Assembly: GCA_000996205.1 (NCBI GenBank)
Contig: LBYO01000006.1
Coordinates: forward strand, 1,969-65,968
Source: Parcubacteria group bacterium GW2011_GWA1_40_21
GTDB lineage: Bacteria > Patescibacteriota > Minisyncoccia > Phycocordibacterales > GWA1-40-21
Reading direction: 5' to 3'
DNA: 64,000 bases
Shown: positions 1,521 through 63,904 of the stretch, in pieces
How positions within the stretch are numbered: the first letter of the stretch is position 1
How the letters are laid out: each line of letters opens with the position of its first letter
The notes under the pieces: model-generated
Databases searched by the model: none
What the model saw: the letters and a program-made list of their open reading frames with translations, nothing else
What the model was told of the DNA's origin: nothing
Program-made: the position numbers and the translations under genes

Positions 1521-1699
1521 TTTCTTTTTCCTTAACCTACCACCTATCACCTACCACCTTCTGCCTGCTATTGCGTAAAAAATGGCTTAATATATAATAC
1601 TCGGAGGCTTAAGTCCTGCGGAAATCATTTTTTGCGGGATGAATTAAAAGAGTAAAATCGGGTCGATTCATTATTAAGTTTAAAATTTAAAAATAACAA

Positions 1700-13201: not shown

Positions 13202-14128
13202 TCAGCTTCGACGGGTGCGGTGAAAATTTTTATGAACATCGCGGAGCTGTTTGTCCGTTACATGGGTGTAGATTTGGGTGGTGGCGATGTTGGAGTGGCC
13301 GAGGAGGGCTTGGACGGAGCGGATGTCGGCGCCGTTGCTTAATAAATCAGTGGCGAAGCAATGGCGGATGACATGAGGCGTGACTTTTTTGGAAATTCCG
13401 GCTTTGATAGCGTAATGTTTGACGATCCTTTCTATTGATCTTGGTGTCAGTCTTAGGTTGTAGGTTGTAGGTTGTAGGTTGTAGGGGGGGGTCCTAACAA
13501 ACAAGGCATCGTCCATATCTTTTCTTTTGTCCAAATAATTTTTTACTGCCGTTTTGGCTTCACTGGAAAGAAAAACAACCCTAATTTTTTCGCCTTTGCC
13601 TCTAATGGAAAATTCGTCCGACTTCAAACTGATGTCTCTTGGCAGGGAACAAAGTTCGGAAACACGTAAGCCTGTGGAAAAAAATAATTCTAAAATTGCT
13701 CTGTCTCTTAATCCCTTTAGCTCGCTAGTGTCTGGAGCATTCATCAGCCGATTAAGCTCCTCCGGCGTGATGAGGTCAAGCGACCTTTCTCCGATTTTCG
13801 CGAGCTCAATCCTCTCCGGAGGCAAAGTTTTAATACCCCGCTTTATCATATACTTCAGAAAAGAACGGAGGGCGATCAAATAATAATTCTGGGTATTTTT
13901 CTTAAGATTTTCCTTTCGGCCGTCAATTGTTTCCCCTGATTCTTGGCGATTCAGCCACAGTCTATATTCTCTCAAAACATCATCAGTAATGCCTTTCGGG
14001 TCATTGAGTTTTGAAAAGTCAAAAAATCTGCTCAAATACCTGTCATAGTTGGCGACAGTTTTGAGGCTTCTTCCTTTCTCAATTTCCAAATGCTCCAAAT
14101 ATTGCCGCTTTAATTGCTCTAGTGTCAT
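13202..14128 (-). CDS. Tyrosine recombinase XerC/XerD-like, with internal repeat insertion
   Basis: C-terminal HVIRHCFATDLL...LLGHSNIATTQIYTHV catalytic box; contains heptamer tandem repeat plus C8 tract at 13455-13491. Confidence 0.85.
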   Translation of the reverse strand: MTLEQLKRQYLEHLEIEKGRSLKTVANYDRYLSRFFDFSKLNDPKGITDDVLREYRLWLNRQESGETIDGRKENLKKNTQNYYLIALRSFLKYMIKRGIKTLPPERIELAKIGERSLDLITPEELNRLMNAPDTSELKGLRDRAILELFFSTGLRVSELCSLPRDISLKSDEFSIRGKGEKIRVVFLSSEAKTAVKNYLDKRKDMDDALFVRTPPYNLQPTTYNLRLTPRSIERIVKHYAIKAGISKKVTPHVIRHCFATDLLSNGADIRSVQALLGHSNIATTQIYTHVTDKQLRDVHKNFHRTRRS

Positions 14129-14351
14129 AAATGTGTAGCCACATTATACTACTGATTAGTTTACAGGTTCTAGTGAATAGGTGTTAACCAAAAGAAGATG
14201 ACAATAATTTTCAATTATCAATTTTCAGTTTTTATTGAATTTCCAATTTCTAAATTTTCAACCTAAAACCTAACCACTAGAAACTAAAACCTGTTTGAAC
14301 GACGAAATGACAATCGCCAGTCGTGCTGATATAATAACTATAATTAAGCAA

Positions 14352-16751: not shown

Positions 16752-17516
16752 ATGAAAAAAATTATTATCGCGAATTGGAAAATGAATCCATCTTCCGCCA
16801 AAGAGGCGGAGCGGATTTTGAATGGAGTGAAAAAGACGGCCGTAAGGCTGAAAAAGACGCAAGTAGTAATTTGTCCGCCTTTTATTTATTTGAATAATCT
16901 GAAAAAAATTATCGGGAAGTCGGCAAATTTGTCATTAGGCGCGCAAAACGCGTTTTGGGAAGTTGAAGGAGCTTTCACGGGGGAAGTGAGTCCGGAGATG
17001 ATAAGAAATTACGGCGGTTCCTATGTGATTTTGGGCCACTCCGAGAGACGAGCTCTCGGCGAAACTGATGAAATAGTGAGTAAAAAGACATTAACTTGCT
17101 TAAAAACCGGATTAAAAACAGTCGTGTGCATTGGAGAAAAAATTCGCGATGAGCAAGGTGATTATTTGGTTTTCTTGAGAGACGAAATTCGCAACTCGCT
17201 TAATAAAATTCAGAAAAAATTCTTGAAAAGCGTAATAATCGCCTATGAACCGATCTGGGCGATAGGCAAGAAAGATACGGAAGCTATGAGTCCCGCGGAT
17301 ATTCACGAAATGGCTATTTATATAAAAAAGATTTTGTCTGAAATCTACGGACAAGAAAGCGCTCTTGCCGTGCCGATTCTATACGGAGGCTCAGTGGGAG
17401 GAGGGAATGCTGGAAACATAATTAAAAGCGGGGGAGTGGATGGTTTACTCGTCGGACATCAGAGCCTTAAGCCGGAAAACTTCAGTGAAATACTGATGTC
17501 GGCGGAAAACTTTTAA
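16752..17516 (+). CDS. tpiA: Triosephosphate isomerase
   Basis: ANWKMN, AYEPIWAIGTG-like, GGSV motifs. Confidence 0.9.
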   Translation: MKKIIIANWKMNPSSAKEAERILNGVKKTAVRLKKTQVVICPPFIYLNNLKKIIGKSANLSLGAQNAFWEVEGAFTGEVSPEMIRNYGGSYVILGHSERRALGETDEIVSKKTLTCLKTGLKTVVCIGEKIRDEQGDYLVFLRDEIRNSLNKIQKKFLKSVIIAYEPIWAIGKKDTEAMSPADIHEMAIYIKKILSEIYGQESALAVPILYGGSVGGGNAGNIIKSGGVDGLLVGHQSLKPENFSEILMSAENF

Positions 17517-21145: not shown

Positions 21146-21376
21146 ATTTTTGTTTTTGCGGACTTGTTGAAATAAATTCAAATTTATGACAATTTTCTTG
21201 TCAAGTTTTTGAATAAAATAAGGCTCAAAACAAGCCTTTTTTAAAAATATAAAAAATTGTTGATATTTTATTGTTCTTAGGTGTAATCTCACATCAGATT
21301 TGTGATTAGCACATTTACATTAATTTAATTGAAAAACCCTCGTAAAATTTTACTATCTGAAGAATAGAAGAAAGGA

Positions 21377-21667
21377 GTGAATATGCTTATGGGTGGTAGC
21401 TTCTCATCAGATGAAACTACAACAGAGCCAAAACCTAGAAAAAAAGGAGCTAGAATAGAGTATGTCAGTAAGGAGGCAACAGAAGATATGATCCCGTATT
21501 GTCAAACCATAAAAAACACAGCGTTTTTAATTTACAAAGGGGAAATAATTGCTAAAGGTTATCCCAGAAGAGGCGAAATTTCGGCATTAGAATCACTTGT
21601 TTGTTTGTATCCAGATTTATTCACCCGAAATGAATCCAAAATTAAAAAGAGAAAGAGGGGGGTGTAA
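21377..21667 (+). CDS. Hypothetical protein
   Basis: aaggag SD 8 nt upstream of ATG. Confidence 0.4.
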   Translation: MNMLMGGSFSSDETTTEPKPRKKGARIEYVSKEATEDMIPYCQTIKNTAFLIYKGEIIAKGYPRRGEISALESLVCLYPDLFTRNESKIKKRKRGV

Positions 21668-21668
21668 A

Positions 21669-22010
21669 ATGTCTTATGAAACACTTGAAAAAGTTTCTTC
21701 GCTGGTAGAGGCTCAAAAAAGCGCAAGAGCGCGGGCTCTTGCAAAAAAAATTAAAGACCCCTATTGGCGGTCAGTGTCTTTTTCAACTATTTTTGCGCTA
21801 ACGGCCAAAAAAGAAGATATGAAGGAAGCGATTGATTCTTTTAAAAAGATAAATCGCAATGATGAGTTGTATGATCAAAAGCGCAACAAGGCAATGCAAG
21901 TCATGAAAATAGCCAAAAAAAAGGTGGAAAAGACGCATCCCGAAAGCAAGTTTAAAAAGGATTTAGAAGAAACTATGAAAGAACTTGGACCGCTACTTTT
22001 CTTAAAATGA
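21669..22010 (+). CDS. Hypothetical basic protein
   Basis: ATG 1 nt after upstream stop; followed by terminator. Confidence 0.4.
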   Translation: MSYETLEKVSSLVEAQKSARARALAKKIKDPYWRSVSFSTIFALTAKKEDMKEAIDSFKKINRNDELYDQKRNKAMQVMKIAKKKVEKTHPESKFKKDLEETMKELGPLLFLK

Positions 22011-22031
22011 CAATGTATAATCATAACACCC

Positions 22032-22062
22032 TGCACAAATACTAACGCGCAGGGTGTTTTTT
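22032..22062 (+). terminator. Rho-independent terminator (acaccctgc...gcagggtgt + T7)
   Basis: 9-bp stem, loop, then tttttttat. Confidence 0.65.
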
Positions 22063-22238
22063 TATAAACACTGCCAATTCAGAGTTAGGGGCTGATTTAT
22101 TGGAAGAAACTTCGACAAAATCATTCTTGTTGCGTGATATAATCCGCCTATGAAAAAATATTCAGTGCGAAAAGAAATACCGGATAGTGCGAGAGAAAAT
22201 CTAGAATCATATCCGGAAATTTTGAGGCGTCGGAAATT

Positions 22239-23891
22239 TTGAGGCGTTTGCTTTTTTATCGGGGAATAGAAAACAACGATGATGCGGAAAAATTTCTGAA
22301 TCCCGATTATGACAGCGGGACTCACGACCCATTTCTTATGAAAGATATGGATAAAGCGGTTGAAAGAATTTTGAAAGCGATTGAGCAAAATGAAAAAATA
22401 ATAATTTACAGCGACTACGACGCAGATGGGATTCCGGGCGCAGTCGTCCTCCATGACTTTTTTAAAAAAATCGGTTTTAACAATTTTGAAAATTACATTC
22501 CGCACAGGCACGAAGAAGGATTCGGACTAAATATGGAAGCGGTGGAGGAGTTCGGAAAAAGTGGCGCAAAACTTTTGATAACAATAGACTGCGGAATCGC
22601 CGATGTGAAAGAGGTGGAACGGCTGAATGAGTTGGGGATTGATGTCATCATCACCGACCATCACGAGCTTGGAGAAAAGATCCCGCCCGCATACGCGATT
22701 TTAAATTCCAAGCAAACGGAATGTTTTTATCCGGAAAAAATGCTATGCGGAGCGGGTGTTGTGTTCAAGCTCGTTCAAGCATTGATAAGCAAAAAAAATA
22801 TTGATTGGCAATTGAAAGAAGGCGCGGAAAAATGGTTTTTAGATATGGTCGGACTCGCCACGCTTTCAGATATGGTTCCTCTTACCGGAGAAAACAGGGT
22901 CTTCGCTTACTACGGTTTGAAAGTTTTAAGAAAATCTCCGCGCGTCGGACTTATGAAACTTTTGAGGAAAATTAAAGTTGAGCAGAAGAATATTACCGAA
23001 GATGATATCGGTTTCACGATAACTCCCCGAATAAACGCCGCTTCAAGAATGGATGCGCCGATGGACGCTTTCAGGCTTCTTGCGACATCCGATGAGACAT
23101 TGGCTGACGAGTTAAGTTCTCATTTGAATAAAATAAATGACGAGAGAAAAGGACTGGTCGCGTCAATGGTCAAAGAGATGAAACATATCATTTCATCGCG
23201 CGCGGATGGCGCGGAGAAAAAAGAAGCGATTGTGATGGGCAATCCGAAATGGAAACCGTCGCTCTTGGGACTTGCCGCGAATACTCTTATGCAAGAAAAT
23301 TTTTGTCCGGTATTTATTTGGGGAAGAGAGGGAGAAAATATTTTGAAAGGCTCGTGTCGTTCACCGGGAAATGTGAGTCTGATCAATCTGATGAAGTCCT
23401 TGCCGAAAGGAATTCTCCGCGACTATGGCGGACATTCTATGTCTGGCGGTTTCAGCGTGAGCCACGAAAAAATTCATTTGCTTGAAGAAGAAATAATCAG
23501 CGCGCTCAAGAAAATAAAAATTGAGAGTGGTGAATTTTCACAGGAAATTTTCATAGACAAAAAATTATTTGTTGATGACGTGAACTGGGAAACTTATAAC
23601 ATTCTTGAGAAACTCGCACCGTTCGGCGCGGGCAATCCGAAACCCCTCTTTCTTTTTGAAAAAATAGAAATCGCGAGCGTGAAAAATTTCGGCAAAGAAA
23701 AAAATCATTTGGAAATTTCTTTCAGAAAAGAAGACGGCAAAAATATTTCCGCCATCGGATTTTTTATGAAAGGCGATGAATGGGGAATAGAACTTAAAGA
23801 AGGAGAAAAAATAAATCTGGTCGCCACGATGGAGAAATCAATGTTCCGCAATTTTCCGGAGTTGCGACTTCGCATTGTGGATATATTGTAA
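22239..23891 (+). CDS. recJ: Single-stranded-DNA-specific exonuclease RecJ (5' end disrupted by 17-bp tandem duplication; TTG start as annotated)
   Basis: DHH motif (DHH at ITDHHE), DHHA1 C-terminal domain; a separate upstream 31-aa ORF (22150-22242) becomes contiguous with recJ if one copy of cggaaattttgaggcgt is removed. Confidence 0.85.
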   Translation: MRRLLFYRGIENNDDAEKFLNPDYDSGTHDPFLMKDMDKAVERILKAIEQNEKIIIYSDYDADGIPGAVVLHDFFKKIGFNNFENYIPHRHEEGFGLNMEAVEEFGKSGAKLLITIDCGIADVKEVERLNELGIDVIITDHHELGEKIPPAYAILNSKQTECFYPEKMLCGAGVVFKLVQALISKKNIDWQLKEGAEKWFLDMVGLATLSDMVPLTGENRVFAYYGLKVLRKSPRVGLMKLLRKIKVEQKNITEDDIGFTITPRINAASRMDAPMDAFRLLATSDETLADELSSHLNKINDERKGLVASMVKEMKHIISSRADGAEKKEAIVMGNPKWKPSLLGLAANTLMQENFCPVFIWGREGENILKGSCRSPGNVSLINLMKSLPKGILRDYGGHSMSGGFSVSHEKIHLLEEEIISALKKIKIESGEFSQEIFIDKKLFVDDVNWETYNILEKLAPFGAGNPKPLFLFEKIEIASVKNFGKEKNHLEISFRKEDGKNISAIGFFMKGDEWGIELKEGEKINLVATMEKSMFRNFPELRLRIVDIL

Positions 23892-25119: not shown

Positions 25120-25351
25120 GCGGAAACTTGCACAGCACGGCGGCGCGACCTGCCCGCCAATGCCTGAGCGATTACAGTGGTAATCTTAATCTTAATAAAG
25201 TTCCACATTTGTATTATAATCTTTTTGCAATACATGGCGCATTGGGGCGAAGGCAGGCGGGGCAGAGCAAATTTTCAGCAGATTTCAGCAGAAAATTATG
25301 CGTGTTCCGCGAATAATGGAGTTTCGTAATTCACAATCTGTAAAGTAAAAA

Positions 25352-25382
25352 ACGGGACAAGTTCCACAGAACTTGTCCCGTC
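25352..25382. terminator. Bidirectional hairpin terminator (gggacaagttccacagaacttgtccc)
   Basis: 10-bp perfect stem flanked by A-run and T-containing tail between convergent rnhA and minus-strand gene. Confidence 0.6.
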
Positions 25383-25693
25383 TAATCTTCTCCGCCCAAA
25401 AACGAACACTCGAAATATTCGTCTAAGTGTTTAAGAGAGTTTTCGTCATTTAATCCCCACGCAATTAGAAAAATCATATAGGCTCCGACGGATGCCAATT
25501 TCAAATCCTGAAGTTTAGGATCAAATTCTGAAGCATATGGATTTTTTTCTTGCCAATCTTTAAGTTTCCTATTTGCGCTAAGAAAACCTTTCGTAGCAAG
25601 ATTGGCGAGATTGGCAGTACGATAAAATTTTAGGCTACTTATAAAGAACAAGAATGGCAGACTCCCAAGAATTACAGCTGAAAAAATTATCAT
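25382..25693 (-). CDS. Hypothetical membrane protein
   Basis: Two hydrophobic helices. Confidence 0.4.
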   Translation of the reverse strand: MIIFSAVILGSLPFLFFISSLKFYRTANLANLATKGFLSANRKLKDWQEKNPYASEFDPKLQDLKLASVGAYMIFLIAWGLNDENSLKHLDEYFECSFLGGED

Positions 25694-35651: not shown

Positions 35652-35894
35652 CTAAACAAGCCCCGCTTTCTTAAGAGTGGCATAGGCGCCATTTTTTTGG
35701 ATGGTTTTGATTGCTTTGGCAGAGAGAGTGAGAATGATAAATTTGTTCAACTCGGGAATGAAAATCCTTTTTTTCTGCATATTGGCATACTTCCTGACTT
35801 TTCCTGTCGGGTTGAATTGCGTGGCGCGAGTGCGGTTGCTATAACCGCCGGCGACGAGAGAGCTTTTTTTAGTTATGGGACAAATTTTTGCCAT
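35652..35894 (-). CDS. rpmB: 50S ribosomal protein L28
   Basis: MAKICPITKKSSLVAGGYSNRTRATQFNP...RIFIPELN matches L28 family. Confidence 0.8.
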   Translation of the reverse strand: MAKICPITKKSSLVAGGYSNRTRATQFNPTGKVRKYANMQKKRIFIPELNKFIILTLSAKAIKTIQKNGAYATLKKAGLV

Positions 35895-35986
35895 AGATTT
35901 TAATTTAAAATTCAGATCTGGATTCCCGCCTGCGCGGGAATGACAGAGCAGATTTGATTTGGATATGCTAACATAAGTTTTATAAT

Positions 35987-36607
35987 ATGCAAGAAACGGA
36001 AATTATATTTTCAATAATCATACTCATAATGTCGGTGGTTGTGCATGAAGTGTCGCACGGCTACGCGGCATTATTTTTCGGCGACGAAACCGCTCGTTAT
36101 CAAGGACGGCTAACCTTGAATCCTCTTAAACATCTTGATTTGACAGGTTCTGTCATTGTTCCACTTTTGCTTATTATATCCAAGTCGGGGTTTGTCTTCG
36201 GCTGGGCAAAACCTGTTCCGATTAACCCTTATAATTTCAGAAACAGGAAATGGGCGGAGCCGATTGTCGCTTTAGCCGGCCCGCTTTCCAACATTTCATT
36301 GGCGATTGTTTTCGGTTTGCTTATAAGATTCGGAGGATATCTTGGCATATTAAGCCCCTCTTTCCTGTATATTGCCGGCTATGTTGTCATAATAAATCTC
36401 GTCCTCGCAATATTCAATCTCATACCGATTCCACCGCTTGACGGGTCACATCTTCTTTTTTCCGCTCTTTCCGAAAGATACGCCCGTCTCAAAGAAACGC
36501 TTCGCCGTTTCGGTTTCATCTTCGTGCTAATTTTCATAATTTTCCTCTGGCCGTTCCTTGTTAAATACATTTTTTATATAGCGTCGTTAATAACGGGGCA
36601 ACAGTGA
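35987..36607 (+). CDS. M50-family (site-2 protease-like) zinc metalloprotease, small form
   Basis: HEVSHG HExxH in first TM, multiple TM helices, LIPIPPLDGS motif. Confidence 0.7.
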   Translation: MQETEIIFSIIILIMSVVVHEVSHGYAALFFGDETARYQGRLTLNPLKHLDLTGSVIVPLLLIISKSGFVFGWAKPVPINPYNFRNRKWAEPIVALAGPLSNISLAIVFGLLIRFGGYLGILSPSFLYIAGYVVIINLVLAIFNLIPIPPLDGSHLLFSALSERYARLKETLRRFGFIFVLIFIIFLWPFLVKYIFYIASLITGQQ

Positions 36608-36775
36608 GTCAAAAGTCTATAAAGTTCGTAAAGTTTATAAAGTGAGGACAGGAGTATTTGTAAAAACTTGATAACTTTATGAACTTGATAATTTTTAACT
36701 TTTTTGCTTCAGCTTGGTAGCTTAACTAGCCAGAAAAGCTAGTTAATTTTTTTAAAAATAAAATAATTCGCGAGA

Positions 36776-40770: not shown

Positions 40771-41040
40771 ATGCTTACAAAGACAAAAAAAACAAAAATC
40801 ATAAAGGAAGTGGCGATTCACGACAAAGACACGGGCTCTCCTGATGTTCAAATCGGCGTTTTGACGAAAAGGATTGAAGAATTGGCGGCTCATCTTAAGA
40901 AAAATCCGAAAGACAAGCACTCAAGACGCGGACTTTTGGGGATGGTTGCTGATAGGCAGACTCATATGAAATATCTCCAGAAGACAAACATAAGAAGATA
41001 CAATTCCTTGATGAAAAAATTGGAATTAAAGAAAAGCTAA
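40771..41040 (+). CDS. rpsO: 30S ribosomal protein S15
   Basis: DTGSPDVQIGVLTKRIEELAAHLKKNPKDKHSRRGLLGMV canonical S15. Confidence 0.9.
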   Translation: MLTKTKKTKIIKEVAIHDKDTGSPDVQIGVLTKRIEELAAHLKKNPKDKHSRRGLLGMVADRQTHMKYLQKTNIRRYNSLMKKLELKKS

Positions 41041-41092
41041 TATAAATTTAGCTTCTTTTCCTAAAACCTACAACCTAACACCTAATTAAACT

Positions 41093-46154: not shown

Positions 46155-46263
46155 TAAAGAAGCCATCGCGGAATAAATTTCTAATTTCTAATCAAATTCA
46201 AATTTCTTAAACCTACAACCTACTACCTAAAACCTACAACCTTCTTCGCGCGTCTAGTATATT

Positions 46264-47634
46264 CCAATCCCCTAATGTCCCCTGAAATCACTTTTCGGTA
46301 ATGATGGGTTTTTTAATATTTTTTTCTAATTTTAACTTTGCTTTCTGCATTTCCTCCGCGAAATCATTGTCGCTCTTAGCATACGCAATTTCATCAAGCA
46401 TTGCAAAAGTAACACCTTCCTTCAAGTACTGTTCCGCTTTTTCCAAAGACTTGAAATTCTCATAGGGAACAAATGTTTGGTCGTACTTCTTCCTGATCTT
46501 TCCTCGCTTGTCCGTGTAATTCGTTGCGTATAAACAGACACGATGATAATTGAGGTAAACATTAAAATAATCGGCATAGAATTCATTGATGGCTCCCGCG
46601 CTACTTTTATTAATAAAGTTTCGTCCCATATGTTTGCGAATAACCGAACCGTTTTTTCCTTCAACAAGCGCATTGTCGGTACTCTTCCTCGATCTGCTTT
46701 TTGTTTGTTTAATCAAGAGTCGCGCCAATATTCTTTCCACTACTTGATTAATATATTCGCTGCCATTGTCAGAATGAAAGTTGATGATGACAAAAGGAAA
46801 CATCGAGAGGAGCATTTCAAGCAAGGGCTTCATATATTCATCAGTAATCTGCGGTACGCAACCAACCAGTTCCCATTGAGTGACTTCATCCACTAGATTG
46901 ATGTGATATACACCTTTATCGCCGTCCAAATCTCCCTGATGCACCGAATCTACCCTTATGTAGCCCGGTTTCCCGTAAGGTACGGGTTTCTTCCTTTCCC
47001 CGATATTCGCATTCACTGGGTTTGTTTTTGAGTATTTAATTGCTTCTGAAGAAAGATACTGTCGGTTGTTCTTCCTTAAGTTGTAAATATGCGACACTGA
47101 AATTTTTGCAATATTCGCATATGCTTCTTTCCCAAAAGTTACGAACTCTCTGACGAGCGTTTGTTTTACGGAACGGCCATTGGGGGTCTTGTGCGCGACA
47201 TCAGTCTTGATGAGCAACGCTATGTCTTCCGGTTTGTAAATACGAACCGAAGCGCCGAATGTCTTCCTCTTCACAAAATACAAGCCATCCTTTTTCCATT
47301 TTTTGATTAACCGTTTCATCTGCTTCTGCTCGTACCCCGTCACTTTTTCAAGAAACATTTTTACTGTTCCTTTGTCTTTCTTGCTCAGCTGTTGGTACCC
47401 AACGCTAACTAAAGACGCGCGTATCAATGTGTATTTTTCTTCTCGAGATTCCACATCAAACTCCATATGACGGCTTCCTTCCAAAAACTTCTTCATTTCC
47501 TCCACTTTTGTTATTTGTATGTTTTTCATAATAATCATAAGCACCATTATGAAAAGTCCCTCTTGTAACGCAACACCTTTCAGGGGACATTAGCGTTAAA
47601 ACGGGATACCGTTTCAGGGGACATTAGGGATTGG
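46264..47634 (-). mobile_element. Insertion sequence with DDE transposase and roughly 23-bp terminal inverted repeats
   Basis: Left ccaatcccctaatgtcccctgaaa / right tttcaggggacattagggattgg; extra subterminal copy of tttcaggggacattag at 47571. Confidence 0.8.
46288..47547 (-). CDS. DDE-type transposase (integrase-core/rve fold)
   Basis: HSDNGSEY, DDE spacing, N-terminal HTH. Confidence 0.85.
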   Translation of the reverse strand: MVLMIIMKNIQITKVEEMKKFLEGSRHMEFDVESREEKYTLIRASLVSVGYQQLSKKDKGTVKMFLEKVTGYEQKQMKRLIKKWKKDGLYFVKRKTFGASVRIYKPEDIALLIKTDVAHKTPNGRSVKQTLVREFVTFGKEAYANIAKISVSHIYNLRKNNRQYLSSEAIKYSKTNPVNANIGERKKPVPYGKPGYIRVDSVHQGDLDGDKGVYHINLVDEVTQWELVGCVPQITDEYMKPLLEMLLSMFPFVIINFHSDNGSEYINQVVERILARLLIKQTKSRSRKSTDNALVEGKNGSVIRKHMGRNFINKSSAGAINEFYADYFNVYLNYHRVCLYATNYTDKRGKIRKKYDQTFVPYENFKSLEKAEQYLKEGVTFAMLDEIAYAKSDNDFAEEMQKAKLKLEKNIKKPIITEK

Positions 47635-47670
47635 AGAAGACTCGTCTTTGCAATTATTTTTCCTTTTGTT

Positions 47671-49813: not shown

Positions 49814-50163
49814 ATGAACATTAGTCTGGTTAAAGAATTTCCACATTTCTTATTTGCCTCTGATGCTGACAGATTCTTGCAAAATTTTAAAAATAACAAA
49901 GATATAGTCTCTCAGCTTAACAATCGCCGTATACATAAGGTAAAATTTGAGCAATTACTTAGTAGTGGCGGTTTAGGTATAGAAGAAGATGGTTCATTTT
50001 GATTTATCTGGAATACCGCCAATAGTGGTTTGCGGATTATCAGAACAAAATGAAGAAGATGTTGAAAAATTTTGTGACACATTTTCTGAATTATGGCTTG
50101 AACAAGTTGGTAAAGAGAATATTATTTGTCGTATTAAAAACGAACGGCAACTGCTATTCTAAA
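49814..50163 (+). CDS. Two overlapping small hypothetical ORFs (49814-50002 and 49990-50163), possibly one frameshifted gene
   Basis: 62-aa and 57-aa ORFs overlapping by 13 nt in different frames. Confidence 0.25.
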
Positions 50164-52180: not shown

Positions 52181-52263
52181 TTTTGGCGGTGGAGAATATT
52201 TCTGTTTCCTACAACCTACCACCTAAAACCTACAACCTTCTTCTTGTGTGGTATAGTTTTCCG

Positions 52264-54273
52264 ATGGATTATTTAAAAGACCTGAATGAGAAACAAAAAG
52301 AAACTGTTTTGCATAAAGACGGTCCGCTTCTTATTCTTGCAGGAGCAGGCTCGGGGAAGACGAAAACGATTACTCACAGAATTTTCCATCTTGTGAGCGA
52401 AGGTGTTTCTCCTCGCCAAATTTTGGCAATCACTTTTACCAACAAAGCGGCGAAAGAAATGAGGGAGAGGGTGCTTGATTTGCTTAAAAAACTTCCAGGA
52501 GCTTTGCCGGCTATCCAAGTTGGCGCGAACAACGAAATCAGTAAAAATTTCCAATTTCCAATTTCCAATTTCCAAAAAGATGAAATCCCGTTCGTAAGCA
52601 CTTTTCATTCTCTGGGCGTCCGGATTATCAAAGAAAATTCCAAAGAGCTTGGAATTCCTCGCCATTTTACTATTTTTGACAAAGGAGATTCGCTGAAAGC
52701 CGTTAAAGAAATACTGAAAGAGCTGGACATTGATTCCAAGCAATTTGAACCGTCAAAAATTTTGGGAATAATTTCCAGGGAAAAAGGCGCTCTGACAACC
52801 GCCGAGAATTATTTAGAAAAAGCGGGCGCTTTCAAGGGCTACTCTCTGAACAAAGTGGTATCCGATGTTTGGACGCTTTATGAAAAAAGATTGGGGCAAG
52901 AGAAATCTCTGGATTTTGATGACCTTTTGCTGAAGACATACCGACTTCTTCGCAAAAGCAAGGAAATTTTGGATTATTACCAAAATTTATGGCAATACAT
53001 TCACATTGACGAATATCAGGACACGAACAAAGCTCAATATGAAATAATAAAACTTCTTGCGGCAAAAAACAGGAACATCTGCGCCGTCGGCGACATTGAT
53101 CAGAATATCTACAGCTGGAGAGGCGCTGACATCCAAAATATTCTGAATTTTGAAAAAGATTATCCCGAGGCGAAAGCAGTAATTTTGGAGGAAAATTATC
53201 GCTCAACCCAGACGATACTCGCGGTGGCGAACGGCATCATAGAGAAGAACACAATGCGAAGAAAGAAAAATTTGTTCACCAAAAATCAAGAGGGCGACAA
53301 GGTGACTCTATTTGAAGCTCATAATGAAAACGAAGAGGCGCGCTTCATCGCGGAGAAAGTCAAACGACTTATCGCGGACGGAGTCGCCCCAAAAGAAATC
53401 GCCATTCTTTACAGGGCCAATTTTCAATCCAGAGTCATTGAAGAAGCTTTTTTAACTCTCAATCTTCCTTATCAGCTTCTCGGCGTCAAATTTTTTGAGA
53501 GAAAAGAAGTTAAAGACACGCTTTCTTATCTGCGCGCCGCGCTAAACAGAGACAGCTTGAGCGACATCAAAAGGGTGATAAATTTTCCGACGAGAGGGCT
53601 GGGAAAAGTGACGCTCGCCAAGGTATTCGCCGGCAGAGAGGCGGAACTGCCAGCCGGAACCAAAGCTAAGGTGGCGAATTTTTACGGTCTTTTGGATAAA
53701 ATAAAAGAAAATGTTTTATCCTTAAAACCTTCGGAGCTTGTGCGGTTTATTGTCAAAGAAAGCGGGATTGAAACTGAACTGAAAGACGGAAGCGATGACG
53801 ACAAAGAAAGACTGGAAAACATAATGGAACTCGCTACTATGGCGAAGAAATACGATTATCTGCCGTACGGAGAAGGTGTTGAAAAGCTGATTGAAGAATC
53901 GGCTTTGTCTACCGACCAAGACTCTCTTGAAAAAGAAAGCGGAGCGGTCAAAATGATGACTGTTCACGCTTCAAAAGGTCTTGAATTTGATTATATTTTC
54001 ATTTCCGGTCTTGAAGAAGATCTTTTCCCGCACCAAAGAATCGGTGGCGGCGCGAAAAGCATTGAGGACTCGGAGGAAGAACGGCGCTTGTTTTATGTCG
54101 CCATAACGAGAGCCAAGAAAAAACTTTTTCTTTCTTACGCGAGGTCAAGAACGATTTTCGGCTCGCTTCAGATCAACAGTCCGTCCCAATTTATCTCCGA
54201 CATAGAACCTGAATTTCTGGAGGAAGAAAAAAGTTTTGAGTATCGAGAAAAAATAATTTATATGGATTTGTGA
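52264..54273 (+). CDS. pcrA: ATP-dependent DNA helicase PcrA/UvrD-family, with in-frame heptamer-repeat insertion
   Basis: GAGSGKT Walker A, TFHS, DEYQDTN, VGDIDQNIYSWRGA, TVHASKGLEFD, VAITRAK motifs; start moved to Met at 52264 (track ORF start overlaps repeat array). Confidence 0.9.
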   Translation: MDYLKDLNEKQKETVLHKDGPLLILAGAGSGKTKTITHRIFHLVSEGVSPRQILAITFTNKAAKEMRERVLDLLKKLPGALPAIQVGANNEISKNFQFPISNFQKDEIPFVSTFHSLGVRIIKENSKELGIPRHFTIFDKGDSLKAVKEILKELDIDSKQFEPSKILGIISREKGALTTAENYLEKAGAFKGYSLNKVVSDVWTLYEKRLGQEKSLDFDDLLLKTYRLLRKSKEILDYYQNLWQYIHIDEYQDTNKAQYEIIKLLAAKNRNICAVGDIDQNIYSWRGADIQNILNFEKDYPEAKAVILEENYRSTQTILAVANGIIEKNTMRRKKNLFTKNQEGDKVTLFEAHNENEEARFIAEKVKRLIADGVAPKEIAILYRANFQSRVIEEAFLTLNLPYQLLGVKFFERKEVKDTLSYLRAALNRDSLSDIKRVINFPTRGLGKVTLAKVFAGREAELPAGTKAKVANFYGLLDKIKENVLSLKPSELVRFIVKESGIETELKDGSDDDKERLENIMELATMAKKYDYLPYGEGVEKLIEESALSTDQDSLEKESGAVKMMTVHASKGLEFDYIFISGLEEDLFPHQRIGGGAKSIEDSEEERRLFYVAITRAKKKLFLSYARSRTIFGSLQINSPSQFISDIEPEFLEEEKSFEYREKIIYMDL

Positions 54274-54355
54274 TACGAAGAAGGTTGTAGGCGTTAGGTT
54301 GTAGGTTGTAGGTTGTAGGAAGAAAAAGTCAAAGTCATTTCTAAAAATAAATATT

Positions 54356-55249
54356 ATGAACAACTTTTCAAATTTAAAAGCTAAAAAATCGCTCGGGCAA
54401 AATTTTTTGAAATCAAAAAATGCCATTTTTGCGATGATTAAAGCAGGAGATGTGAGTGAGAATGATATCGTGCTGGAAGCCGGTCCGGGCAAAGGCGTCC
54501 TCACGGAAGAATTGCTCAAAAAAGCCGGCAAGGTCATTGCCGTTGAAAAAGACGATATGCTGGTAGAATTCCTCCGCGATAAATTTAAACTAGAAATAGA
54601 AAGTGGGAAACTAGAACTCGTTCACGGCGACATCTTGGAGTTTAATCCCGCAACCTACCACCTACCACCTACCACCTACAACCTTCCCCTCACAACCTAC
54701 AACCTTCAACCTACAACCTTCCCCTCACAACCTACAACCTTCAAACTTATCGCCAACATCCCTTATCACATCACCGGCCAATTTTTAAGAAAATTTCTGT
54801 CCGGCGACATTCAGCCTTCCAAAATGGTGATTCTCCTTCAAAAAGAAGTGATGGAAAGAATTATGGCGAATGACGGCAAAGAAAGCATACTTTCCATAAG
54901 CGTAAAAGCTTATGGCCGACCGAAAAATATCGGCAAAGTTTCCAAAGAAAACTTTTCTCCGAAGCCAAAAGTTGACTCGGCGATACTTCTCATAGACAAT
55001 ATCTCGCGCGATTTTTTCACTTCGTCTGTCCAAAATAACGAAGATAAATTTTTCCAGATTGTTAAAGCCGGTTTTGCTCACAAAAGAAAAATGCTGGCTG
55101 GAAACTTAGAACATTCCAAGGACTCCCTTTGGAAAGGGAGAAACCGAGAGGAAATTGAAAAGATTTTTGAAACTTGCAAAATACCGCCGAAATCCAGAGC
55201 GGAGGATATAAAACTGGAACAGTGGAAGCGCTTAAGTTCCATGCTTTAA
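54356..55249 (+). CDS. rsmA: 16S rRNA adenine dimethyltransferase RsmA/KsgA with roughly 30-aa repeat-encoded insertion
   Basis: LGQNFL, EAGPGKGVLT SAM motif, NIPYHIT; insertion 54649-54745. Confidence 0.9.
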   Translation: MNNFSNLKAKKSLGQNFLKSKNAIFAMIKAGDVSENDIVLEAGPGKGVLTEELLKKAGKVIAVEKDDMLVEFLRDKFKLEIESGKLELVHGDILEFNPATYHLPPTTYNLPLTTYNLQPTTFPSQPTTFKLIANIPYHITGQFLRKFLSGDIQPSKMVILLQKEVMERIMANDGKESILSISVKAYGRPKNIGKVSKENFSPKPKVDSAILLIDNISRDFFTSSVQNNEDKFFQIVKAGFAHKRKMLAGNLEHSKDSLWKGRNREEIEKIFETCKIPPKSRAEDIKLEQWKRLSSML

Positions 55250-63303: not shown

Positions 63304-63738
63304 ATGAAATTCCAAGTCCCGCAATTTATTGAAATAGAAGACAAGATATTCGGGCCTTTGACCTTGAAGCAATTTATTTACCTTGCCGGAGGGGGCGGAA
63401 TTTCTTTCGTCATTTATTCCATAATTCCTTACCTTGTCATAGCTTTATTTTTCATCATACCGGTTATGCTTTTCTCTGTTGCTTTGGCTTTCTATAAGAT
63501 AAATGGCAAGCCGTTCATATTCATTCTTGAGTCGGCCGTGAAATACACTTTGAGCAACAAACTTTATCTGTGGCAAAAAAGAGAAAAAGTTATAACAAAA
63601 AAAGACAGCATTTCCAACGACAACTCATCCCTCCTCAAAGTACCTAAACTGTCAGAAAGCAAGCTCAAAGATTTAACTTGGAGTTTAGATATAAATGAAA
63701 ATATCAATCCGATTACGAGAGATAGTAAAAGGTTATAG
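63304..63738 (+). CDS. PrgI-family (VirB3-like) small membrane protein
   Basis: FGPLTLKQFIYLAGGGGISFVIYSIIPYLVIALFFIIPVMLFSVALAFYKINGKPF matches PrgI family pattern. Confidence 0.55.
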   Translation: MKFQVPQFIEIEDKIFGPLTLKQFIYLAGGGGISFVIYSIIPYLVIALFFIIPVMLFSVALAFYKINGKPFIFILESAVKYTLSNKLYLWQKREKVITKKDSISNDNSSLLKVPKLSESKLKDLTWSLDINENINPITRDSKRL

Positions 63739-63904
63739 GTGCTAGGCGTTAGGTTTTAGGGGTTAGGAAAGAAAAGATAAGATTGGGAATATAAAAAATA
63801 TGTTATAATTTTTAAAAGTTGCAGGTTGCTGTTTTACAACTTTCTTCACTCTCGCCCTAAAACCTAACACCTATAACCTTCTTAAAAACCTACAACCTAA
63901 AAAA

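What the first reader, a model, noticed from the sequence alone, without database searches (positions are those of the whole stretch)
22150..22260. 17-bp tandem duplication (cggaaattttgaggcgt x2) frameshifts the 5' end of recJ
Upstream ORF MKKYSVRKEIPDSARENLESYPEILRRRKF* (from ATG 22150) runs into stop tga at 22240-22242. Deleting one 17-nt copy joins it seamlessly to the RecJ frame, giving ...YPEILRRLLFYRGIENN, a typical RecJ N-terminus. As it stands, RecJ would have to initiate at TTG 22239 and would lack about 25 N-terminal residues. This could be a real disruption or switch, or an assembly error.
Basis: seen in the sequence. Interest (0 to 1): 0.55.

Follow-up and report, generated by a model that had tools for sequence, protein, structure and literature searches.

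The report
Likely assembly-error duplication splitting recJ
The 17-base tandem duplication that breaks the DNA-repair gene recJ is really in this sequence, but 20 other contigs of the same groundwater bacterium carry an intact gene, so it is most likely a local assembly mistake and not biology.

Summary
CGGAAATTTTGAGGCGT occurs twice in tandem (22214-22230, 22231-22247). The extra copy cuts recJ into a 30-aa leader ORF (22150-22242) and a 550-aa body (TTG 22239-23891).

Removing one copy gives a 574-aa RecJ that is 100% identical to KKR45199.1 from a sister Parcubacteria genome.

All 20 distinct other contigs covering the site carry one copy, and none contains the copy-to-copy junction. They come from JGI, ENA, Logan and NCBI assemblies of the same aquifer population. 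Most are about 99-100% identical to the window.

A co-occurring strain (L041) is identical to the window for 961 nt upstream. It first differs at the last base of the 17-mer, so an assembly-graph fork sits at the edge of the duplicated unit.

In 50 kb with three or more comparators the window has no real private SNP but three private indels: this duplication, a 35-bp deletion and an 80-bp deletion. The sister genome from the same project has eight.

Best explanation: a local mis-join in the draft (about 0.7). Rival: a real, very recent private frameshift allele (about 0.25). There is no evidence for a switch or recoding. Interest is low.

The parts
22214..22230 (+). Copy 1 of the 17-bp unit CGGAAATTTTGAGGCGT. 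It encodes part of ...PEILRR in the recJ frame.
22231..22247 (+). Copy 2 of the 17-bp unit. This extra copy is absent from all 20 other contigs and shifts the frame by +17 nt.
22150..22242 (+). 30-aa leader ORF. It holds the first 27 codons of recJ, then three out-of-frame codons (RKF) and TGA.
   Evidence: Residues 1-27 equal the N-terminus of P0001.
22239..23891 (+). 550-aa RecJ body ORF starting at TTG, whose start overlaps the leader stop as TTGA. It contains the DHH, DHHA1 and RecJ_OB domains and all catalytic motifs. It is identical to KKR53621.1 (P0006).
22224..22227 (+). GAGG in copy 1, 11 nt upstream of TTG 22239. It is a possible weak Shine-Dalgarno site for re-initiation. This is inference only.
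   Evidence: read from the sequence
22230..22230 (+). Last base of the unit (also 22247 in copy 2). It is the first position at which the co-occurring strain L041 differs, after 961 identical nt. This marks an assembly-graph fork.
   Evidence: The L030 contig starts at 22237.

Best explanation
The extra 17-mer is most likely a local assembly error in this draft metagenome-assembled genome, which is probably Parcubacteria GW2011_GWA1. It is probably not a feature of the organism.

Proposed mechanism (inferred, not shown): two closely related strains coexist in the aquifer. They are identical upstream and diverge starting at the last base of the 17-mer. This creates a fork in the assembly graph where contigs end. 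The two pieces flanking the fork overlapped by 17 nt and were joined without collapsing the overlap, which wrote the overlap twice.

The organism's real recJ would then be the intact 574-aa gene seen in every other assembly. It is a standard bacterial RecJ 5'-3' ssDNA exonuclease. Its N-terminal strand and helix are inferred to pack with the OB-fold domain, by analogy with D. radiodurans RecJ.
For: 1. The repaired ORF is 100% identical over 574 aa to P0001 (KKR45199.1). That protein is found in JGI, ENA, Logan and NCBI assemblies.
2. 19 distinct contigs of the window's own sequence type, plus the variant strain L041, all carry one copy. None contains the junction GAGGCGTCGGAAATTTT. These contigs were built by several assemblers from many samples. 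The recJ DNA is otherwise identical, with 0-1 SNP.
3. The 550-aa product exists only in the NCBI record of this one assembly. No other indexed contig encodes it.
4. L041 is identical for 961 nt and first differs at base 17 of the unit, then is 89.5% identical over the next 181 nt. An independent MEGAHIT contig (L030) begins inside the unit at 22237.
5. In 50 kb covered by three or more other assemblies the window has 0 real private SNPs among 343 polymorphic sites. It nevertheless has three private indels: this duplication, a 35-bp deletion at about 36703-36709 (6 of 6 comparators have the extra sequence), and an 80-bp deletion at 49992/49993 (5 of 5 comparators). The 80-bp deletion removes an HELGH motif, and its left edge coincides with the true end of contig L013.
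6. The sister genome GWC1, from the same GW2011 series, has eight private indels. Two lie in tpiA and rpsO. One deletion (22041-22130) abuts the starts of contigs L009 and L026.
7. Chen et al. 2020 (PMC7111523) describe local assembly errors as prominent in IDBA-UD assemblies, and describe scaffold joins that keep duplicate overlapping sequence.
8. The lost N-terminus is conserved. Y4, R7 and Y21 are at least 90% conserved in 54 homologues down to 58% identity. AlphaFold2 models residues 1-30 confidently. A recJ without them would therefore be expected to be counter-selected.
Against: No reads were available, so read support for the junction was not tested.

There are no Ns at the site. De Bruijn contigs normally need read support for junction k-mers, so an extra step (scaffolding, gap closing or automated re-assembly) must be assumed. 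That this draft was built with IDBA-UD and a re-assembly script is my recollection, not a tool result.

The 17-nt overlap does not match any k-mer size I can document.

Short exact tandem duplications do occur for real in this population. TTTCAGCAGA x2 at 25273 is shared by the window and six independent contigs and absent from four. A JGI contig has a private CCAAAAACGA x2.

I could not establish whether any comparator assembly was made from the same sample as the window.
Confidence: 0.7

Rival explanations
1. The duplication is a real, very recent, sample-specific or minority allele. A replication-slippage or template-switch event duplicated 17 bp and frameshifted recJ in one sub-lineage.

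The cell would then make a 30-aa peptide. It might also make a RecJ lacking residues 1-24, by termination-reinitiation at the TTGA overlap with GAGG 11 nt upstream. That protein would keep all catalytic motifs but lose the N-terminal strand and helix that pack with the OB-fold domain. It would probably be a weakened exonuclease.
For: Real short tandem-duplication polymorphism exists 3 kb away: the 10-bp duplication at 25273 is present in 6 independent contigs and absent in 4. The population also shows real structural polymorphism, such as an IS present or absent at 46256-47642.

The sequence has no Ns and reads cleanly. The TTGA stop/start overlap and the GAGG are present. The D. radiodurans RecJ nuclease core without residues 1-47 and the OB domain keeps reduced activity (PMC4846377).
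Against: 0 of 20 other contigs carry the duplication. There are no accompanying private SNPs. The edge of the unit coincides with another strain's divergence point, which matters to an assembler but not to a replicating cell. The same contig has two other private gene-damaging or promoter-damaging indels. The N-terminus is under purifying selection.
Confidence: 0.25
2. The duplication is a functional device. It could be a reversible on/off (phase-variation) switch for recJ. Alternatively it could be a recoding site, where ribosomes shift -1 at AAA-TTT-TGA to make a full-length RecJ with a 6-residue insertion.
For: A two-copy tandem repeat can revert by slippage. The leader ends in a T-run next to a stop codon. 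None of this evidence is comparative.
Against: There is no copy-number variation among the 20 other contigs, and no 3-copy allele. The 17-mer is ordinary single-copy coding sequence in all relatives.

The zero-frame codons CGG AAA TTT TGA do not form an X XXY YYZ slippery heptamer. A +1 slip lands in the wrong frame. No relative has this arrangement.
Confidence: 0.03

Closest known systems
Bacterial RecJ, single-stranded-DNA-specific 5'-3' exonuclease (TIGR00644; structures 5F54, 2ZXO, 8Y30)
   Same: The repaired ORF scores 510.9 bits against a cutoff of 396.9. It has DHH, DHHA1 and RecJ_OB domains, with the motifs DxDxDG, DHH and GGH intact. Its N-terminal segment is modelled as structured.
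   Different: As written in the window, the gene is split by a 17-bp duplication. The main ORF lacks residues 1-24. In D. radiodurans RecJ the N-terminal region (residues 1-48) belongs to the OB-fold domain.
Local assembly errors in metagenome-assembled genomes (Chen, Anantharaman, Shaiber, Eren and Banfield 2020, Genome Res, PMC7111523)
   Same: The anomaly is private to one draft. It lies at a strain-variation fork and is accompanied by other private indels. The paper describes duplicate overlapping sequence at scaffold joins and says errors are prominent in IDBA-UD assemblies.
   Different: The described duplicate-overlap error has Ns between the copies, and here there are none. Lack of read support, which is the defining criterion, could not be tested.
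Frameshift alleles from short tandem duplications / slipped-strand phase variation
   Same: It is an exact head-to-tail duplication whose length is not a multiple of 3. It lies near the 5' end of a gene and is in principle reversible.
   Different: No second allele state is seen in any other contig. The unit is not a pre-existing repeat tract, and there is no conservation in relatives.
Termination-reinitiation (translational coupling) at overlapping stop/start codons such as ATGA
   Same: The leader stop TGA (22240-22242) overlaps the TTG start (22239-22241) as TTGA, with GAGG 11 nt upstream.
   Different: The arrangement is a by-product of the duplication and not a conserved gene junction. 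TTG is a weak start codon, and nothing shows that it is used.

Membership tests
RecJ (TIGR00644 equivalog) | Whole-protein score above the curated cutoff | tested here: met
   The repaired ORF scores 510.9 bits against a cutoff of 396.9 and matches model positions 3-545 of 546.
RecJ (TIGR00644 equivalog) | DHH domain with its conserved Asp/His motifs, plus DHHA1 with GGH | tested here: met
   PF01368 and PF02272 are both hit. D83, D85, D87, D141, D164-H165-H166 and G421-G422-H423 are invariant in 54 homologues and present here.
RecJ (TIGR00644 equivalog) | C-terminal RecJ OB-fold domain | tested here: met
   PF17768 matches residues 463-572 at E=5e-24.
RecJ (TIGR00644 equivalog) | N-terminal segment that completes the OB-fold domain (residues 1-48 in D. 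radiodurans RecJ) | tested here: not met
   It is met only after removing one 17-mer. The ORF as written (550 aa) lacks residues 1-24, which form strand 3-6 and helix 12-17 in the AlphaFold2 model.
RecJ (TIGR00644 equivalog) | 5'-3' exonuclease activity on ssDNA | not testable with these tools
   This needs biochemistry.
Local assembly error (Chen et al. 2020) | [quoted passage not shown] | not testable with these tools
   No reads were available.
Local assembly error (Chen et al. 2020) | The anomaly is private to one assembly while independent assemblies of the same population agree with each other | tested here: met
   0 of 20 other contigs have two copies. The 550-aa product is found only in this assembly's NCBI record.
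Local assembly error (Chen et al. 2020) | Located at a point of strain variation or at contig ends | tested here: met
   L041 diverges at the last base of the unit after 961 identical nt. The L030 contig starts at 22237.
Local assembly error (Chen et al. 2020) | Duplicate flanking sequence around inserted Ns at a scaffold join | tested here: inconclusive
   The duplicate is present, but the window contains no Ns.
Slipped-strand phase variation | Copy number of the repeat varies among members of the population | tested here: not met
   All 20 other contigs have one copy, and there are no 3-copy alleles. In contrast, the 10-bp repeat at 25273 does vary, 6 contigs against 4.
Programmed -1 ribosomal frameshift | Slippery heptamer X XXY YYZ in the zero frame, conserved in relatives | tested here: not met
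   The zero-frame codons are CGG AAA TTT TGA. Relatives have an uninterrupted ORF.
Termination-reinitiation coupling | Overlapping stop and start codons with an upstream ribosome-binding element | tested here: met
   There is a TTGA overlap at 22239-22242 and GAGG at 22224-22227. Whether it is used is not testable here.

The most novel reading that the evidence does not exclude
The duplication is a real allele that dominates the one sample behind this assembly. It would act as a reversible attenuator of RecJ in a candidate-phyla-radiation bacterium. The 550-aa body would still be made by TTGA termination-reinitiation. Loss of full RecJ activity would in turn raise the rate of the short tandem duplications seen elsewhere in this population.
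Probability: 0.04. Interest if true: 0.45.

Novelty: not a real feature. Interest (0 to 1): 0.08.

Why it matters
The main value is as a caution. The public protein KKR53621.1 (550-aa RecJ) and the missing N-terminus are probably products of a draft-assembly error. The same contig carries at least two more private indels that damage a small HExxH protein and an intergenic promoter-like region. The sister draft has eight such indels, including ones in rpsO and tpiA.

Anyone inferring gene loss, pseudogenes or unusual starts in these candidate-phyla-radiation drafts should compare sibling assemblies first. If the duplication were real, it would only be a private loss-of-function or hypomorphic allele of a well-known repair gene.

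Tried and rejected
- Exact-pattern scans of metagenome contigs and genome contigs, with a variable-gap pattern and then a plain 34-mer, found nothing.
- Look-ups for contigs encoding the 550-aa product, for P0006 and for the 30-aa leader found none.
- I searched papers for the run accessions, to map SRR and BioSample ids to the GWA1 sample. There were no useful hits, so I could not tell whether a comparator shares the window's reads.
- I tried to fetch the start of the MEGAHIT contig k141_1267751. By arithmetic it should begin within about 10 nt of the 17-mer, but it was not among the places shown. This remains inference only.
- A dinucleotide-preserving shuffle script timed out. I replaced it with mononucleotide shuffles and an analytic estimate.
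- Programmed frameshifting was considered and rejected. A +1 slip on TTTT lands in the wrong frame, and a -1 slip lacks a proper slippery heptamer.
- A tolerated truncation was considered and rejected. Relatives keep the full N-terminus.

Full report
**1. The observation**

The window contains CGGAAATTTTGAGGCGT at 22214-22230 and again at 22231-22247. The two copies are exact. They are bounded by C at 22213 and T at 22248, so neither side extends the repeat.

About 8e-6 such 17-bp duplications are expected by chance in 64 kb of this composition. Only 3 of 300 shuffles produced any exact tandem duplication with a unit of 12-40 bp.

The ORF from ATG 22150 reads MKKYSVRKEIPDSARENLESYPEILRRRKF and stops at TGA 22240-22242. 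The next ORF starts at TTG 22239 and runs to 23891, 550 aa. Removing one copy gives a 574-aa ORF.

**2. What the gene is**

- The repaired protein matches the RecJ equivalog TIGR00644 at 510.9 bits against a cutoff of 396.9.
- It has DHH, DHHA1 and RecJ_OB domains.
- It aligns to solved RecJ structures 8Y30, 5F54, 2ZXO and 1IR6.
- The catalytic motifs all lie in the 550-aa part and are intact.

The repaired protein is 100% identical over its full length to P0001 (KKR45199.1), annotated as RecJ of Parcubacteria group bacterium GW2011_GWC1. The 550-aa form is P0006 (KKR53621.1) from GW2011_GWA1, on a 68,075-bp contig. That contig is presumably the source of the window. This form is known only from that NCBI record.

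**3. The N-terminus matters**

Homologues down to about 58% identity begin M-K-x-Y-x-(V/L)-R...YPE(L/I)L..LLF.RGI. In an alignment of 54 sequences, Y4, R7 and Y21 are at least 90% conserved.

An AlphaFold2 model (mean pLDDT 89.9) places residues 1-30 with pLDDT 83-95. It shows a strand at 3-6 and helices at 12-17 and 23-30.

In D. radiodurans RecJ, residues 1-48 are part of the OB-fold domain. The nuclease core without that domain has much reduced activity and processivity (PMC4846377). The 550-aa ORF would therefore be at best a weakened enzyme. That step is inference.

**4. Comparison with other assemblies of the same population**

Look-ups by exact protein returned many contigs from JGI, ENA (three different assembly series), Logan and NCBI. 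Most are about 99-100% identical to the window over up to 21.7 kb.

Nineteen distinct contigs of the window's own sequence type cover the site. All have exactly one copy of the 17-mer. None contains the copy-to-copy junction. A twentieth contig, L041, is a variant strain and is also single-copy. Within recJ the DNA is otherwise identical, with 0-1 SNP.

**5. The site is an assembly-graph fork**

L041 is identical to the window for 961 nt upstream. Its first difference is base 17 of the unit (window 22230, equivalent to 22247). After that it is only 89.5% identical over the next 181 nt.

Two strains therefore share everything up to ...GAGGCG and diverge from the next base. This is the kind of place where graph assemblers end contigs. 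An independent MEGAHIT contig (L030) starts inside the unit at 22237, and another (L043) ends about 40 nt downstream.

A strain boundary in a different genotype has no bearing on replication in the window's genotype. It does bear on how an assembler joins pieces.

**6. The window has other private indels and no private SNPs**

About 50 kb of the window is covered by three or more other contigs, and 343 sites there are polymorphic. The only window-private "SNP" is an alignment artefact of a deletion.

The window nevertheless has three private indels:
- the 17-bp duplication;
- a 35-bp deletion at about 36703-36709, where 6 of 6 comparators have the extra sequence; the missing stretch is intergenic and reads like a sigma-70-type promoter;
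- an 80-bp deletion at 49992/49993, where 5 of 5 comparators have the extra sequence. It removes the HELGH motif of a 142-aa ORF and frameshifts it. Its left edge is the true end of contig L013.

The sister draft GWC1 (L003, L010), from the same GW2011 series, has eight private indels:
- a 25-bp tandem duplication;
- deletions inside tpiA, rpsO, comM and uvrD;
- a 90-bp deletion at 22041-22130 that abuts the start (22132) of contigs L009 and L026.

The other assemblies agree with each other at all of these sites. Chen et al. 2020 report that local assembly errors are prominent in IDBA-UD assemblies. They also report that scaffold joins can retain duplicate overlapping sequence (PMC7111523). 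That these GW2011 drafts were made with IDBA-UD plus automated re-assembly is my recollection and was not checked here.

**7. Evidence pointing the other way**

Short exact tandem duplications are real in this population. TTTCAGCAGA x2 at 25273-25292 is present in the window and in six independent contigs built with several different assemblers. It is single-copy in four others. A JGI contig has a private CCAAAAACGA x2 at 25396.

There are no Ns at the recJ site. I had no reads, and I could not find out whether any comparator came from the same sample as the window.

**8. Verdict**

| Explanation | Probability |
|---|---|
| Local assembly error: a 17-nt overlap at a strain fork written twice | about 0.7 |
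| Real, very recent private frameshift allele | about 0.25 |
| Switch or recoding device | about 0.03 |

If the allele is real, the TTGA stop/start overlap and the GAGG 11 nt upstream could allow re-initiation of a RecJ lacking residues 1-24 (inference). For the switch or recoding option, copy number does not vary among contigs, there is no proper slippery site, and no relative has this arrangement.

Either way, the species has an ordinary, intact recJ. Interest is low. The practical lesson is that this draft and its sister contain several gene-breaking local errors.

Noticed in passing
window 49992/49993 (ORF starting at 49814): The window lacks 80 bp that all 5 other contigs have. The deletion removes the HELGH motif of a 142-aa putative metallopeptidase-like ORF and frameshifts it. 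The left edge equals the true end of contig L013. It is probably another local assembly error.
   Followed up: partly
window 36703-36709: The window lacks about 35 bp (GCATTTTTTTGAGACGCATAGTAAAGTATTTCCTAT) that is present in 6 of 6 other contigs. The missing stretch is intergenic and, read by eye, looks like a sigma-70 promoter (TTGCAT...TAAAGT).
   Followed up: partly
window 25273-25292: A 10-bp tandem duplication, TTTCAGCAGA x2, lies in an intergenic region. It is a genuine population polymorphism: two copies in the window and 6 independent contigs, one copy in 4 others.
   Followed up: yes
L001 (JGI 3300025030), equivalent to window 25396: There is a private CCAAAAACGA x2 in one JGI contig. 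It changes the C-terminus of the minus-strand ORF 25382-25693 (135 aa instead of 103 aa).
   Followed up: partly
window 21743-21750: The homopolymer run is A8 in the window and 14 distinct contigs and A9 in 4 distinct contigs. A9 splits the 113-aa ORF just upstream of recJ. This could be real length variation or a sequencing or assembly difference.
   Followed up: partly
window 46256-47642: A 1387-bp insertion carries an rve-family transposase ORF (46288-47547, minus strand). It is present in the window, L013 and L017 and absent from 7 other contigs. Contig L018 ends exactly at 46255. This is an IS presence/absence polymorphism.
   Followed up: partly
L003 and L010 (NCBI GCA_000995985.1, GWC1): The sister draft has eight private indels relative to all other assemblies. 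Their window equivalents are 14991, 15403, 17377-17423, 22041-22130, 35862-35998, 40833-40962, 49412 and 52410-52434. They include a 47-bp deletion in tpiA, a 130-bp deletion removing most of rpsO, a 28-bp deletion splitting comM and a 25-bp deletion in uvrD.
   Followed up: partly
window 1535-1559, 13454-13485, 14260-14292, 41060-41085, 46210-46242, 52208-52238, 54282-54319, 54651-54744, 63736-63767, 63856-63879: Arrays of the heptamer ACCTAC(A/C), or its reverse complement TAGGTTG, recur near gene boundaries. One 94-bp array lies inside the KsgA/RsmA ORF (54356-55249) and is translated as PATYHLPPTTYNLPLTTYNLQPTTFPSQPTTFKL. No copy-number differences were seen among contigs covering it. Its function is unknown.
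   Followed up: no
window 22135-22150: An extended -10-like box, TGATATAAT (22135-22143), ends 6 nt before the recJ ATG at 22150. This suggests a leaderless or near-leaderless recJ mRNA. The consensus promoter scan did not list it because there is no -35 match.
   Followed up: no
L041 (ERZ27254739 k141_1906293), equivalent to window 21269-22427: This is a mosaic strain. It is 100% identical to the window for 961 nt, then 89.5% identical from the last base of the 17-mer onward. Its RecJ N-terminus is of the P0005/P0009 type. This is a recombination-like boundary inside recJ codon 27.
   Followed up: partly
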